DNA of 12,304 bases, taken from the IMG/VR virus record IMGVR_UViG_3300032315_001309, positions 1 to 12,304 of that record. One strand, given 5' to 3'. The notes under the pieces are model-generated. The model made no database searches. It was given only the letters and a program-made list of their open reading frames with translations, and had not been told where the DNA came from. Position 1 is the first letter of the stretch, and each line of letters opens with the position of its first letter. Position numbers and translations under genes: made by a program. The stretch is from a virus. Taxonomy: Duplodnaviria > Heunggongvirae > Uroviricota > Caudoviricetes. Shown piece after piece: positions 4,959-8,019 of the stretch.

Positions 4959-5020
4959 AAGATCAGTCAGCAACAACAAATACATTAGTCTCTTAAACTA
5001 ACCCGTAAAAACTGATCTTG
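4959..5020 (+). ncRNA. CAGCAA stem-loop RNA, copy C1
   Basis: P1 AAGATCAGT (4959-4967)/ACTGATCTT (5011-5019) + G; CAGCAA at 4968; inner hairpin TTAGT-CTCTTAA-ACTAA (4985-5001); CGTAAAA before the 3' strand. Confidence 0.7.
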
Positions 5021-5081: not shown

Positions 5082-6557
5082 ATGACTTTTATTACTGCAC
5101 TTGAATCTGAATTGAATACCACTGAAACTCTAAATGGAGCTAAGGCATATAAATCTACTCTCAACAAATGCCTGGATCTTTTTGGTAAGATCGGCGCATG
5201 TCGCAATAATATCAAACAGGCAGAAAAACTGTTTGATCTAGCATATCGAGAAGATCCTGAAACTGCAACTCGTATTCTTTTCTGGGTAAGGGATGTACGT
5301 GGAGGTAGCGGTGAGCGTAGTATCTTCCGCACTCTATTTAAAAATCTTGTCCAAAAGAATCAAGAGCTTGGCCAAAAGCTAGTAGCACTTGTTCCTGAGT
5401 ATGGTCGTTGGGACGATCTGCTCGTTCTGGAAAATACTTCTGTTTGGAATCAAGTTTTAGATCTGATTACACATCAACTGAATACCGATCAAATCATGAT
5501 GGCCAGTGGTGGTCAGGTTTCTCTACTTGCTAAATGGCTTCCAAGCATTAACGCATCCAGTAAAGATAGTAAGCGTCTTGGACGTGAAATCGCTCAGCAT
5601 ATGGTGCTGACTGAAAGGCAGTATCGGAAAACTCTGGCTCGTCTTCGCTCTCATATTAAAATTGTGGAGCAGCAAATGTGCTCTAAGGAATGGTCTGCCA
5701 TTGATTATTCCAAAGTACCTTCACGAGCTTCTTTCATGTATCGTAAGGCATTTGGAAAACAGGATCCTACCCGATATCAGAAATATCTAACTGATGTTGA
5801 GAATGGCAAGGCAAAAATCAATGCGAGCACCCTATATCCATATGATGTTGTAGATCAGTATCTCAATAAGGGAGCACGGGGAGATAAGACTATTGATCTT
5901 CAATGGGAAGCTCTACCAAACTATATGGGTGATAATCTCCTAAATGGTCTTGTTGTAGCCGACGTTTCTGGTTCCATGACTCAAAATAATGGACTACCGT
6001 TGGCCGTTTCTATCTCTCTTGCGATGTATATTGCAGAGCGAAATGCATCACCAGTTTGGAAAGACAAGTTCATTACTTTCTCTAGTCAACCTGAGTTGCA
6101 AACTGTTGTTGGTAAAACTATTGGAGAACGTATTCAAAATCTTTCCAGAGCAGATTGGGGATATAATACTAATCTCATCAGCGTATTCAAAACTATTCTG
6201 AAAGCAGCTAAGAGTAAAGATGTTGCTCCAGTGGATATGCCACAAAAAGTAATTATTGTTTCTGATATGCAATTTGATCAAGCTTGTGTTTCTAACAAAC
6301 GAACTAACTTTGAGCATATTGAAAAACTCTATCGTGCTTCTGGGTATGAGTTACCTCAACTGGTCTTTTGGAATGTCAATGCAATTGGCGCTAATGTTCC
6401 AATGACTGTTGCTGATTACAATACCTGTTTGGTTTCTGGTTGTTCCCCATCCATCTTAAAATCTGTTCTCAAAGGTGAAATTGTCACTGCTGTGGATATG
6501 ATGAGTGATGCTGTATATTCTGAAAGGTATATGCAGGTCGGAGCGGCATTCAACTAA
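5082..6557 (+). CDS. DUF2828-family protein with C-terminal vWA domain (Ro60/TROVE-like RNA-binding protein), 491 aa
   Basis: Family motifs RDVRGGSGER, YGRWDDL, LAKWLPS, YSKVPS, MIDAS-type DVSGSM, FITFS, WGYNTN, SDMQFD, VFWN, LVSG. TROVE-like helical toroid plus vWA architecture is inferred, not computed. Confidence 0.85.
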   Translation: MTFITALESELNTTETLNGAKAYKSTLNKCLDLFGKIGACRNNIKQAEKLFDLAYREDPETATRILFWVRDVRGGSGERSIFRTLFKNLVQKNQELGQKLVALVPEYGRWDDLLVLENTSVWNQVLDLITHQLNTDQIMMASGGQVSLLAKWLPSINASSKDSKRLGREIAQHMVLTERQYRKTLARLRSHIKIVEQQMCSKEWSAIDYSKVPSRASFMYRKAFGKQDPTRYQKYLTDVENGKAKINASTLYPYDVVDQYLNKGARGDKTIDLQWEALPNYMGDNLLNGLVVADVSGSMTQNNGLPLAVSISLAMYIAERNASPVWKDKFITFSSQPELQTVVGKTIGERIQNLSRADWGYNTNLISVFKTILKAAKSKDVAPVDMPQKVIIVSDMQFDQACVSNKRTNFEHIEKLYRASGYELPQLVFWNVNAIGANVPMTVADYNTCLVSGCSPSILKSVLKGEIVTAVDMMSDAVYSERYMQVGAAFN

Positions 6558-6795: not shown

Positions 6796-6824
6796 TTGAC
6801 AAGCTCGCCCCCCTCTGCTAAGAT
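6796..6824 (+). promoter_or_regulatory. Sigma70-type promoter for the RNA array
   Basis: TTGACA, 17-nt spacer, TG-n-TAAGAT (6819-6824); the first RNA repeat starts at 6832, about the expected TSS. Confidence 0.8.
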
Positions 6825-6831
6825 AAATTCA

Positions 6832-6880
6832 TAGATGATTCAGCCATTAAACTTTTTTGGTAAAAAACAACATCATCTAG
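6832..6880 (+). ncRNA. CAGCCA stem-loop RNA, copy A1
   Basis: TAGATGAT/ATCATCTA 8-bp P1 + G; TCAGCCA; inner TTTT-TTGGTAA-AAAA. Confidence 0.7.
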
Positions 6881-6891
6881 ATTTAAAACCT

Positions 6892-6947
6892 TAGGTGGTT
6901 CAGCAACTAAAAATATACTAAGTCAAACTACAGTAAAAACCACCTAG
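6892..6947 (+). ncRNA. CAGCAA stem-loop RNA, copy B1
   Basis: TAGGTGGTT/AACCACCTA P1 + G; CAGCAA; inner AGT-CAA-ACT; AGTAAAA before the 3' strand. Confidence 0.7.
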
Positions 6948-6954
6948 TTAATTT

Positions 6955-7064
6955 CGGGGAATAGCTCAATGGTAGAGCAACGTAAAATATATCTAGTTTA
7001 GATATTAACTGCAATTTAAAGCATTCGGAGCCGTTGGTTGTAGGTTCGAATCCTGCTTCCCCGA
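6955..7064 (+). tRNA. tRNA-Arg(UCG)-like gene with a 38-nt insertion at 29/30 (T1)
   Basis: CGGGGAA/TTCCCCG acceptor, GCTC-AATGGTA-GAGC D arm, GTAGG-TTCGAAT-CCTGC T arm. Removing 6983-7020 gives the anticodon arm ACGGC-ATTCGGA-GCCGT. Amino-acid identity is uncertain: no A20, and C1-G72/A73 are Pro-like. Confidence 0.7.
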
Positions 7065-7065
7065 T

Positions 7066-7117
7066 TAGATGATTCAGCCATTAAACTTTTTTTGGTAAAA
7101 AATACAACATCATCTAG
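7066..7117 (+). ncRNA. CAGCCA stem-loop RNA, copy A2
   Basis: Near-identical to A1 (one extra T, plus a TA insertion); starts 1 nt after the T1 discriminator. Confidence 0.7.
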
Positions 7118-7143
7118 TATTTTTAAATTTTTATGATATAATT

Positions 7144-7193
7144 TAGGTGGTTCAGCAAATACTGTTTTCCAAATACAAACACCATCCACCTAG
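7144..7193 (+). ncRNA. CAGCAA stem-loop RNA, copy B2
   Basis: TAGGTGG/CCACCTA P1 + G; TTCAGCAA; inner TGT-TTTCCAAAT-ACA. Confidence 0.7.
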
Positions 7194-7201
7194 TTAATTT
7201 T

Positions 7202-7312
7202 GGAGAGATAGCTCAGTTGGTAGAGCAGCGTAAAATATATCTAGTTTTAGGTATTAACCGCAATACAAGCATGTTAAGCCGTTTGTCGTAAGTTCGAATC
7301 TTACTCTCTCCG
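7202..7312 (+). tRNA. tRNA-Asn(GUU)-like gene with a 38-nt insertion at 29/30 (T2)
   Basis: GGAGAGA/TCTCTCC acceptor, G73 (Asn discriminator), GCTC/GAGC D stem, GTAAG-TTCGAAT-CTTAC T arm. Removing 7231-7268 gives GCGGC-ATGTTAA-GCCGT. Confidence 0.75.
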
Positions 7313-7313
7313 T

Positions 7314-7363
7314 TAGATGATTCAGCCATTAAACTTTTTTTGGTAAAAAACAACATCATCTAG
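7314..7363 (+). ncRNA. CAGCCA stem-loop RNA, copy A3
   Basis: Near-identical to A1; starts 1 nt after the T2 discriminator. Confidence 0.7.
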
Positions 7364-7680: not shown

Positions 7681-7710
7681 TTGACTTTTGAATTTCCCCC
7701 GCTGGGGGGC

Positions 7711-7740
7711 TTGACAGGCCAGGATCTCCTGTGCTATGAT
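7711..7740 (+). promoter_or_regulatory. Sigma70-type promoter
   Basis: TTGACA, 18-nt spacer, TG-n-TATGAT; followed by a GGCC-GCAA-GGCC leader hairpin and a late-like CATAAATA (7761-7768). Confidence 0.75.
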
Positions 7741-7803
7741 CAACGTAAGGCCGCAAGGCCCATAAATATCATGGATTCAAATTTCGTTAACTCATTCAAA
7801 TCA

Positions 7804-8019
7804 ATGTCACTGACCACAAAATTTAAAAAAGATATCCAGGTGCTGCGGCAAGCTGCTAATGGTGAATTTTATTTGGACGTAAAAAACCCAAAACTTTTTA
7901 AGAAAGTAAAACGTTACTATGAAGATGTTGGTGTAGTTTTTTCTGGTGATCCTGAAGATGATTATGAAATGCTGATCGATTACCTATATGAAGATCTTGA
8001 AGTACAACCGGTTGCGTAA
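7804..8019 (+). CDS. Conserved cyanophage hypothetical protein, 71 aa
   Basis: MSLTTKFKKDIQVLRQAANGEFYLDVKNPKLFKKV...; the ORF-track TTG start at 7681 lies upstream of the promoter, so ATG 7804 (or 7771) is more likely. Confidence 0.75.
   Translation: MSLTTKFKKDIQVLRQAANGEFYLDVKNPKLFKKVKRYYEDVGVVFSGDPEDDYEMLIDYLYEDLEVQPVA

What the first reader, a model, noticed from the sequence alone, without database searches (positions are those of the whole stretch)
6955..7312. Two tRNA genes interrupted by homologous 38-nt inserts at the same non-canonical site (29/30)
Seen: T1 insert 6983-7020 TAAAATATATCTAGTTTAGATATTAACTGCAATTTAAA; T2 insert 7231-7268 TAAAATATATCTAGTTTTAGGTATTAACCGCAATACAA. Removing exactly these restores full 5-bp anticodon stems (ACGGC/GCCGT; GCGGC/GCCGT) with 7-nt loops reading UCG (Arg) and GUU (Asn; G73 agrees). 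Each insert holds an ATATCTA/TAG(A/G)TAT hairpin kept by a G-U substitution. Both loops have an atypical A32. The inserts are far too short for group I introns; short non-canonical introns are an archaeal/eukaryotic feature. Inference: either a phage tRNA intron removed by an unknown enzyme, or an unspliced tRNA-Y-RNA chimera that shields or displays its anticodon.
Basis: partly seen in the sequence, partly recalled or inferred. Interest (0 to 1): 0.9.

Follow-up and report, generated by a model that had tools for sequence, protein, structure and literature searches.

The report
Phage tRNAs carrying Ro60-type RNA handle
Two cyanophage tRNA genes are each interrupted in the anticodon stem by a conserved 38-base element that, across many phages and some bacterial assemblies, occurs only beside a gene for a Ro60-like RNA-binding protein, so it is more likely that protein's docking "handle" (a Y-RNA-like tRNA chimera) than an ordinary intron.

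Summary
Rfam's tRNA model finds 6955-7064 and 7202-7312, each with 49 nt where 11 are expected. Removing 6983-7020 and 7231-7268 restores 5-bp anticodon stems with UCG and GUU loops.

The inserts are not decay. The same module (A-rich strand, covarying 6-7-bp hairpin, then ACNGCAAU) interrupts tRNAs in other cyanophages, in Aeromonas T4-like phages and in many uncultured phages.

The key context is the gene 400 nt upstream (5082-6557, Pfam DUF2828+DUF7788). Its model (pLDDT 94) matches only Ro60/TROVE structures. A covariance model of the module gave:
- 49 hits in 80 phage loci holding this gene, all on the gene's strand;
- further hits in bacterial-assembly loci holding it;
- none in 200 control loci.

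The insertion site varies (26/27 to 31/32), and in many relatives the module replaces the anticodon loop.

Best reading (0.6): T1 and T2 are tRNA/Y-RNA-like chimeras whose insert is the handle for the Ro60-like protein. Binding and lack of splicing are inferred. Protein-dependent splicing is not excluded: four complete relatives encode a T4 Rnl1-type ligase.

I found no paper or Rfam family describing this. Earlier follow-ups in this scan reached the same reading on other genomes.

The parts
6955..7064 (+). T1: 110-nt tRNA (Arg-UCG-type anticodon arm, discriminator A) with the module inserted between positions 29 and 30
   Evidence: Rfam tRNA 51.4 bits with a 49-nt anticodon-arm segment. Identical copy in Synechococcus phage B3, annotated tRNA-Pseudo.
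6983..7020 (+). T1 insert (38 nt): A-rich strand 6983-6988, hairpin 6989-7005, CUGCAAU 7009-7015, linker 7016-7020
   Evidence: Sequence. Covariance model R1 hit 6980-7015, 38.5 bits, E 5.6e-7.
7021..7031 (+). T1 distal anticodon stem-loop (GC + AUUCGGA + GC); anticodon UCG at 7025-7027
   Evidence: Sequence. The 2-bp distal stem is predicted by RNAalifold across 18 homologues.
7202..7312 (+). T2: 111-nt tRNA (Asn-GUU-type anticodon arm, discriminator G) with the module inserted between positions 29 and 30
   Evidence: Rfam tRNA 50.0 bits. Absent from phage B3, which has only the T1 unit.
7231..7268 (+). T2 insert (38 nt): A-rich strand 7231-7236, hairpin 7237-7254 (one U-G pair), CCGCAAU 7258-7264, linker 7265-7268
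   Evidence: Sequence. R1 hit 7228-7264, 35.4 bits, E 2.9e-6.
7269..7279 (+). T2 distal anticodon stem-loop (GC + AUGUUAA + GC); anticodon GUU at 7273-7275
   Evidence: Sequence.
5082..6557 (+). Gene for a 491-aa Ro60-like protein (helical TROVE-like ring part plus vWA domain with intact MIDAS), the proposed partner of the module
   Evidence: Pfam DUF2828 (E 1.7e-39) and DUF7788 (E 4.5e-50). AF2 model pLDDT 94, pTM 0.92. The top 13 Foldseek PDB hits are all Ro60/TROVE, TM up to 0.62. D294/S296/S298/T363/D395 are invariant in 83 sequences. PHROG 850 'RNA-binding protein'.
6892..6946 (+). Free-standing stem-loop with the two motifs in the other order (helix strand, UCAGCAA, variable part, AGUAAAA, pairing helix strand)
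   Evidence: Regex with an 8/8 complementary helix. Context only; not analysed further.
4960..5018 (+). Second free-standing stem-loop of the same build (CAGCAA ... CGUAAAA), just upstream of the Ro60-like gene
6832..6882 (+). Repeated hairpin unit (also at 7066-7118 and 7314-7363) that flanks T1 and T2 in an ordered array; a related unit lies at 7144-7194
   Evidence: Direct-repeat family D1; sequence.
6796..6824 (+). Sigma-70-like promoter match (TTGACA, 17 nt, TAAGAT, with TG) in front of the RNA array
   Evidence: Consensus scan. The number of such matches in the region is not above shuffles, so only its position is suggestive.

Best explanation
T1 and T2 are tRNA-derived partner RNAs of the phage's Ro60-like protein, in effect tRNA/Y-RNA-like chimeras.

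Shown:
- Each folds as a normal cloverleaf.
- From the 5' strand of the anticodon stem an extra arm projects, made of an A-rich strand, a covarying hairpin, ACNGCAAU and a short linker.
- The two halves of the anticodon stem can still stack, so an anticodon loop is kept.
- The module is conserved over very distant phages and occurs beside genes of this protein family.

Inferred:
- The module is the docking handle for the Ro60-like ring.
- The RNA works with the module in place, as Y RNAs do.
- The tRNA body supplies processing by RNase P and 3' end enzymes, stability and possibly charging. In the window the two tRNAs also punctuate an array of free-standing small RNAs carrying related motifs.

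What the particle does is unknown. RNA surveillance or repair during infection, or capture of a host nuclease as reported for Thermus phage phiLo Ro60, is the most likely field.
For: 1. Homologous inserts at the same site occur in Aeromonas phages Ahp1, Aeh1, PX29 and phiAS5, in Synechococcus phages B3, B23 and BUCT-ZZ01, and in IMG/VR contigs.
2. All 7 hairpin pairs show compensatory changes, and shuffled and slid controls score far lower. The cloverleaf plus hairpin consensus has 21 of 24 pairs with compensatory change.
3. The adjacent ORF is Ro60-like by fold with a conserved MIDAS.
4. Orthologues lie beside the insert-bearing tRNAs in every locus tested that holds enough flanking DNA.
5. 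Model R1 gave 49 hits in 80 phage loci with the gene, all on the gene's strand, covering all 19 loci whose protein is 62% or more identical. It gave 8 hits at E<=0.01 in 7 of 80 bacterial-assembly loci, all within about 1 kb of the gene. It gave 0 hits in 100 random viral loci, and 0 in 100 viral loci holding uninterrupted tRNAs with the same D-arm and anticodon stem. None of those 119 tRNA loci encodes the protein.
6. The insertion site is not fixed (26/27 to 31/32). About 40% of 61 module-bearing long tRNAs have no restorable anticodon arm. In the bacterial-assembly loci read, the module replaces the anticodon loop.
7. Stem-loops with the same two motifs in permuted order stand alone in the window.
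8. Aeh1 also has an ordinary tRNA-Asn(GUU) elsewhere.
9. Precedent: Y RNAs encoded next to Ro60 mimic tRNA (PMC4201824), and a phage Ro60 binds phage-encoded Y-like RNAs (PMC12135203).
Against: - No binding, expression or size data exist.
- Many members, T1 and T2 included, keep a complete anticodon arm with U33 and a purine at 37. Most GUU members have discriminator G. This looks like selection for decoding or charging, which a module at 29/30 would probably hinder on the ribosome unless it is removed.
- All four complete relatives encode a T4 Rnl1-type RNA ligase.
- The protein is not detectably a TROVE member by sequence.
- Only 7 of the 61 more distant phage loci show the module.
Confidence: 0.6

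Rival explanations
1. The insert is a true intron of a new kind. An unknown endonuclease cuts at both ends, perhaps guided or marked by the Ro60-like protein bound to the module. A phage RNA ligase of the T4 Rnl1 type then joins the halves into ordinary decoding tRNA-Arg and tRNA-Asn.
For: Exact removal restores canonical 5-bp stems and 7-nt loops with U33 and R37 in T1, T2 and at least 20 relatives, against 3.6% of shuffled controls. Both halves of the anticodon stem covary across the insert. GUU members mostly keep discriminator G. B3, BUCT-ZZ01, Aeh1 and PX29 all encode an Rnl1-type ligase plus a second RNA-ligase domain.
Against: There is no conserved pairing or sequence at the 3' junction: the linker is 4-10 nt and variable, with no BHB. 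No splicing endonuclease, RtcB or PNK3P-type end-healing domain was found. The insertion site varies and many relatives cannot be restored to a tRNA. The same two motifs occur in exon-less free-standing RNAs. Aeh1 has a separate ordinary tRNA-Asn. No protein-dependent tRNA splicing is known in bacteria or phages (my own knowledge).
Confidence: 0.2
2. The chimeras are baits. The tRNA body, with its exposed and fast-changing anticodon loop, attracts host anticodon nucleases or other tRNA-directed defence enzymes, while the handle ties them to the Ro60-like ring for sequestration or for repair by Rnl1. This is a functional sub-version of the best explanation.
For: The same acceptor stem carries different anticodons in related phages: UCG/UAA/UGG, GCA/GUA, UGG/UGU. 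At least 4 of 14 groups of long tRNAs do this, against 0 of 9 groups of ordinary tRNAs in the same loci. Some loops break the U33 or R37 rule. T1 and T2 share a D-arm and anticodon stem that, among 120 uninterrupted phage tRNAs with that exact pattern, go with anticodon UCU in 93, which suggests anticodon turnover on one scaffold. An Rnl1-type ligase is present.
Against: Numbers are small and lineages are not independent, so the 4/14 versus 0/9 contrast is not significant. No nuclease partner is identified. Anticodon switching also occurs in real tRNA evolution.
Confidence: 0.1
3. The two genes are decaying tRNA pseudogenes, or tRNAs disrupted by a small selfish DNA insertion with no RNA-level function.
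For: tRNAscan-based annotation calls the B3 copy a pseudogene. ARAGORN does not call either gene.
Against: Module sequence and position are conserved between cyanophages and Aeromonas phages, with compensatory changes in the hairpin and in both halves of the anticodon stem. The cloverleaves are intact, including the 15-48 pair switching from A-U in T1 to G-C in T2. The link to one protein family is strict.
Confidence: 0.03

Closest known systems
Bacterial and phage Y RNAs of the YrlA type with Ro60/Rsr (Chen et al. 2014, PMC4201824; Thermus phage phiLo Ro60 with Yrl1/Yrl2, PMC12135203)
   Same: Small RNAs are encoded right beside a Ro60-fold gene. They combine a protein-binding module with a tRNA-like body, often in several copies per locus. 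An unpaired conserved motif sits next to a helix.
   Different: The protein is DUF2828+DUF7788, not a TROVE member by sequence. The motif is ACNGCAAU rather than GNCGAAN0-1G. There is no Rfam YrlA or Y RNA hit. Here the body is a full tRNA with open acceptor ends and, in T1 and T2, a complete anticodon arm. The module is a capped hairpin inserted into the anticodon stem, not a stem formed by the RNA's two ends.
Archaeal and eukaryal protein-spliced tRNA introns at non-canonical positions (review PMC4090602)
   Same: A short insert sits in a tRNA gene at a non-canonical position of the anticodon arm, and its removal restores a cloverleaf.
   Different: There is no bulge-helix-bulge motif. No splicing endonuclease or RtcB is present in the phage genomes. 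The hosts are bacteria. The insert has its own conserved sequence and is linked to a Ro60-like gene.
Group I introns in bacterial and phage tRNA genes
   Same: They interrupt the anticodon arm of tRNA genes in bacteria and phages.
   Different: Group I introns are about 200 nt or longer, lie in the anticodon loop and have a ribozyme core. Here there are 38 nt, in the stem, with no Rfam intron hit.
Class I RNAs of dictyostelid social amoebae (Kjellin et al. 2021, PMC7919456)
   Same: The paper describes a short stem joining the two ends plus an adjacent unpaired 11-nt motif, in which U3, C6, C9, A10 and A11 are nearly invariant. The module consensus acUuACAGCAA has the same letters at those five places. 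The free-standing stem-loops in the window have the same topology.
   Different: Class I RNAs are eukaryotic, and their only known binder is an RRM protein. In T1 and T2 the order of the parts is circularly permuted. No Rfam hit links them.
Engineered 'tRNA scaffold' for recombinant RNA (Ponchon and Dardel; from my own knowledge, not checked here)
   Same: A foreign structured RNA placed in the anticodon arm of a tRNA is processed and stabilised like a tRNA.
   Different: It is man-made, and it usually replaces the anticodon loop, as in the relatives rather than in T1 and T2.

Membership tests
tRNA (Rfam RF00005) | Cloverleaf scoring above the family's gathering threshold | tested here: met
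   51.4 and 50.0 bits against a threshold of 29.
tRNA (Rfam RF00005) | Uninterrupted 17-nt anticodon arm | tested here: not met
   49 nt in place of 11 model positions.
tRNA (Rfam RF00005) | Aminoacylation and use in decoding | not testable with these tools
   Needs acid-gel, tRNA-seq or translation assays.
Archaeal/eukaryal protein-spliced tRNA intron | Bulge-helix-bulge at the two splice sites | tested here: not met
   The consensus fold of 18 homologues shows no pairing between the junctions, and the 3' linker varies in length and sequence.
Archaeal/eukaryal protein-spliced tRNA intron | Splicing endonuclease (PF01974) and RtcB-type ligase available | tested here: not met
   No hit in this record or in four complete relatives. 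The archaeal control genomes did give hits.
Group I intron in tRNA | Ribozyme core recognised by Rfam; located in the anticodon loop | tested here: not met
   No intron family even at E<=10. The insert is 38 nt and lies in the stem.
Y RNA / YrlA | Encoded next to a Ro60-type gene | tested here: met
   The gene is 400 nt upstream and has a Ro60 fold. The linkage holds across loci and is absent in controls.
Y RNA / YrlA | tRNA-like domain | tested here: met
   Full tRNA cloverleaf.
Y RNA / YrlA | Ro-binding stem formed by the 5' and 3' ends, with the GNCGAAN0-1G motif; match to the Rfam model | tested here: not met
   A capped hairpin with ACNGCAAU instead. No Rfam Y RNA or YrlA hit.
Y RNA / YrlA | Bound by the Ro60 protein in cells | not testable with these tools
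   Needs immunoprecipitation or EMSA.
Ro60/TROVE proteins (for ORF 5082-6557) | Helical-repeat ring plus vWA domain with MIDAS | tested here: met
   Full-length Foldseek matches to 1yvp, 2i91, 9nf8, 2nvo and 9kop. The DxSxS..T..D residues are invariant.
Ro60/TROVE proteins (for ORF 5082-6557) | Sequence match to TROVE (Pfam) or to solved Ro60 chains | tested here: not met
   Pfam gives DUF2828, DUF7788 and VWA_2 only. phmmer and profile searches of the PDB find no Ro60.
Dictyostelid Class I RNA | End-joining short stem with an adjacent 11-nt motif (U3, C6, C9, A10, A11) | tested here: inconclusive
   The motif letters agree, but the topology in T1 and T2 is permuted and no model-based match was obtained.

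The most novel reading that the evidence does not exclude
The module is the recognition element of a third, protein-guided kind of tRNA splicing. The Ro60-like ring docks on the handle. A so far unidentified nuclease excises it from whatever position of the anticodon arm it occupies. The phage Rnl1-type ligase then seals the tRNA. This would let the phage keep a private pool of tRNAs that becomes usable only in infected cells.
Probability: 0.15. Interest if true: 0.92.

Novelty: new variant of a known kind. Interest (0 to 1): 0.76.

Why it matters
The function of the tRNA-like part of bacterial Y RNAs, and of Ro60 in microbes generally, is still unclear. This system differs in several useful ways:
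- The Ro60-like protein's partner is a complete tRNA that still shows an anticodon.
- It sits in cultivable phage-host pairs (Aeh1 and PX29 on Aeromonas; B3 and BUCT-ZZ01 on Synechococcus).
- The family also reaches uncultured phages and bacterial-assembly contigs.

This gives a large uncharacterised protein family (DUF2828+DUF7788; 6917 cluster representatives at E<=0.001) a concrete RNA ligand to test. It also explains long tRNAs in phage records that are annotated as pseudogenes, given doubtful anticodons (Aeh1 'Val-CAC', PX29 'Leu'), or left unannotated. It may connect to the orphan Class I RNAs of social amoebae. If the RNAs turn out to be spliced, that would be a new splicing pathway.

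Tried and rejected
- ARAGORN finds neither gene.
- Rfam, at gathering thresholds and at E<=10, gives no family for the insert or for the flanking hairpins.
- T4 rnaC and rnaD (species 1 and 2 RNAs) were read as possible relatives. They show neither motif.
- My first database pattern, built on the D-arm plus GUAAAAU, returned mostly coding-sequence chance matches, with only about 6 true hits among 119.
- A strict regex for free-standing permuted modules found only 2 in 80 protein-linked loci. The A-rich strand is too variable for such a regex, so I make no claim about how common the free form is.
- A loose clustering control for anticodon variability merged unrelated tRNAs and was discarded. 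It was replaced by exact acceptor-stem groups.
- G73 enrichment among GUU members was not significant under the strict 5-bp parse (3/5 versus 12/56, p=0.09).
- A second-round model (R2) added only two more distant loci.
- Sequence searches of the protein against the PDB found nothing. Only the fold comparison did.
- Papers: 'DUF2828' gives only incidental plant and tardigrade mentions. Searches for tRNA introns in phages, and for Ro60 or Y RNA in T4-like phages or cyanophages, found no description of this element.
- One review could not be opened.

Full report
**What is in the sequence**

The window is a piece of a T4-like cyanophage. It is 87.6% identical over the region to Synechococcus phages B3 and B23 (Kyanoviridae), and its own record is a 76-kb fragment.

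Rfam's tRNA model finds six tRNAs. Two of them, 6955-7064 and 7202-7312, hold 49 nt where the model has 11 in the anticodon arm. ARAGORN misses both.

The inserts are 6983-7020 and 7231-7268, 38 nt each. Their removal gives ACGGC/GCCGT with loop AUUCGGA (UCG), and GCGGC/GCCGT with loop AUGUUAA (GUU, discriminator G). Each insert has a 7-bp hairpin, with one U-G pair in T2. The rest of each cloverleaf is regular, and the 15-48 pair switches from A-U in T1 to G-C in T2.

**The insert is a conserved, structured module**

BLAST and pattern scans found the same element at the same place in several groups of tRNA genes:
- Aeromonas T4-like phages Ahp1, Aeh1, PX29 and phiAS5;
- Synechococcus phage BUCT-ZZ01;
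- many IMG/VR contigs.

The common plan has four parts:
- an A-rich strand, often GUAAAAU;
- a 6-7-bp hairpin whose sequence changes freely;
- two to four bases followed by ACNGCAAU;
- a 4-10-nt variable linker.

In an alignment of 54 inserts all seven hairpin pairs show compensatory changes. 89.6% of cells are paired against 65.7% in shuffles, and 91 cells have changes on both sides against 23.5. Sliding the partners drops the covariation score from 0.67 to 0.11-0.18. RNAalifold on 18 full-length homologues returns the cloverleaf, the insert hairpin and the 2-bp distal anticodon stem. Of 24 predicted pairs, 21 carry compensatory change, and nothing resembles a bulge-helix-bulge. Decay is therefore excluded.

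**The decisive context is the neighbouring gene**

The ORF at 5082-6557, 400 nt upstream, matches Pfam DUF2828 and DUF7788. It has no sequence match in the PDB. An AlphaFold2 model from 83 sequences (pLDDT 94, pTM 0.92) has Ro60 as its 13 best Foldseek matches, all over the full length:
- Xenopus Ro60 with Y RNA;
- human Ro60;
- Deinococcus Rsr;
- Thermus phage phiLo Ro60.

TM-scores reach 0.62. The vWA part keeps an invariant MIDAS. PHROGs calls the family 'RNA-binding protein'.

Orthologues of this gene lie beside the insert-bearing tRNAs in every locus with enough flank. PX29p152, 36% identical, lies 2.3 kb upstream of the PX29 copies.

**Strength of the link**

A covariance model of the module (R1) gave the following.

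| Set searched | Hits |
|---|---|
| 80 phage loci chosen only for encoding the protein (969 kb) | 49 at E<=0.01, all on the gene's strand, covering all 19 loci with a protein 62% or more identical |
| 80 bacterial-assembly loci with the protein | 8 at E<=0.01 in 7 loci, all within about 1 kb of the gene |
| 100 unrelated viral loci (827 kb) | 0 |
| 100 viral loci holding ordinary tRNAs with the same D-arm and anticodon stem (786 kb) | 0 |

None of the 119 tRNA control loci encodes the protein. Only 7 of the 61 more distant phage loci show the module, even with a second-round model. The RNA partner has therefore either diverged there or lies elsewhere.

**What the relatives say about intron versus handle**

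A scan for 95-135-nt cloverleaves found 79 distinct long tRNAs. Most lie in these loci, often two to five per locus.

Among 61 that carry the module, a single deletion restores a perfect 5-bp stem with U33 and R37 in 22, and a 4-bp stem in 13 more. Only 3.6% of shuffled controls can be restored in this way. The deletion site ranges from 26/27 to 31/32, most often 28/29 or 29/30, and both halves of the stem covary. The remaining 40% or so have no restorable anticodon arm. In the Firmicutes-type loci the module plus a short linker simply replaces the anticodon loop.

The window itself holds free-standing stem-loops (4960-5018 and 6892-6946) in which CAGCAA follows one strand of a helix and (C/A)GUAAAA precedes the other. 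This is the order expected for a circular permutation of the insert. That lead came from a first-reader note on this window, and I checked it only by regex.

Related phages carry different anticodons on the same acceptor stem: UCG/UAA/UGG on the T1 body, GCA/GUA, and UGG/UGU. Ordinary tRNAs in the same loci never do (at least 4 of 14 groups against 0 of 9; small numbers).

T1 and T2 share a D-arm and anticodon stem. Among 120 uninterrupted phage tRNAs with that exact pattern, 93 carry anticodon UCU. Aeh1 has a separate ordinary tRNA-Asn.

**Enzymes**

The window's record and four complete relatives (B3, BUCT-ZZ01, Aeh1, PX29) have:
- no RtcB;
- no tRNA-splicing endonuclease;
- no PNK3P domain.

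All four complete relatives encode a T4 Rnl1-type ligase, and all five records have a second RNA-ligase domain. A cut-and-seal pathway therefore cannot be ruled out.

**Conclusion**

The best-supported reading is that the 38-nt inserts are the docking handle of the phage's Ro60-like protein. T1 and T2 are then tRNA/Y-RNA-like chimeras, analogous to YrlA RNAs that sit beside Ro60 and mimic tRNA (PMC4201824) and to the Yrl RNAs of phage phiLo (PMC12135203).

They differ from those in three ways. The protein family is different, the motif is ACNGCAAU, and the whole tRNA including its anticodon arm is kept.

The linkage, conservation and fold are shown. Binding, persistence of the insert in the mature RNA, and the biological role are inferred. 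Splicing (0.2) remains the main rival, because so many members keep a rule-abiding anticodon arm.

**Prior knowledge**

Rfam has no family for this element. Literature searches found no description of it. Public phage records annotate these genes as pseudogenes, give them doubtful anticodons, or leave them unannotated.

The module consensus agrees at the five near-invariant positions of the 11-nt motif of dictyostelid Class I RNAs. This is a lead taken from earlier notes of this scan and is only partly checked.

Earlier follow-up agents of this scan reached the same Ro60-like-protein-plus-handle-RNA reading on other genomes. I arrived at the gene link independently, before opening those notes.

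Noticed in passing
L168:2352-2468 (Aeh1); same place in L169 and L170: Just upstream of the module-bearing tRNAs, the Aeromonas phages carry a 117-118-nt tRNA-like RNA. It has a normal acceptor stem and D-arm but two T-arm-like hairpins (GGTTCGA(A/T)TCC twice). PX29 annotates part of it as tRNA-OTHER.
   Followed up: no
L168:2618-2736 (Aeh1) and L170:2619-2735 (PX29): A second long tRNA with the module is annotated 'tRNA-Val CAC' in Aeh1 and 'tRNA-Leu', joined from two pieces, in PX29. No canonical anticodon arm can be restored with 5 bp, so both annotations look doubtful.
   Followed up: partly
window 6832-7363: Ordered array: hairpin A, stem-loop B, tRNA T1, A, B, T2, A, then three ordinary tRNAs (Arg-UCU, Gly-UCC, Ile-UAU). 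Phage B3 has only one A-B-T unit. The tRNAs may punctuate processing of the small RNAs.
   Followed up: partly
window 7681-8019: The ORF right after tRNA-Ile(UAU) has a weak match (E 0.0099, below cut-off) to the TiaS TCKD domain of the archaeal tRNA-Ile2 agmatidine synthetase, and a solid match to PHROG 552 of unknown function.
   Followed up: no
L101:7156-7284: An IMG/VR tRNA starts its insert with the same CGUAAAAU but carries a longer and different insert of about 57 nt with no ACAGCAA. It is possibly another kind of interrupted phage tRNA.
   Followed up: no
L253:9905-10009 (Aeh1 114904-115008): A 105-nt 'tRNA-Glu UUC' is annotated in the main Aeh1 tRNA cluster next to gp57B, so its length suggests another interrupted tRNA. 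R1 was not run on it.
   Followed up: no
L006:10101-10218, L137:1550-1669 and the homologous tRNA on the minus strand of L070: One tRNA body (acceptor GGGAACG) has the module between the D-arm and an intact UUUUU/AAAAA anticodon stem. It carries GCA, GUA or CCA in three related contigs. All three read codons one step from stop codons.
   Followed up: partly
L255-L334: Homologues of the Ro60-like protein (38-43% identity) are frequent in Clostridia, Treponema and other gut or rumen MAGs, and in a few isolates (Thermoactinomyces, Mycolicibacterium, Selenomonas, Anaerotignum). Whether these are prophages was not checked.
   Followed up: no
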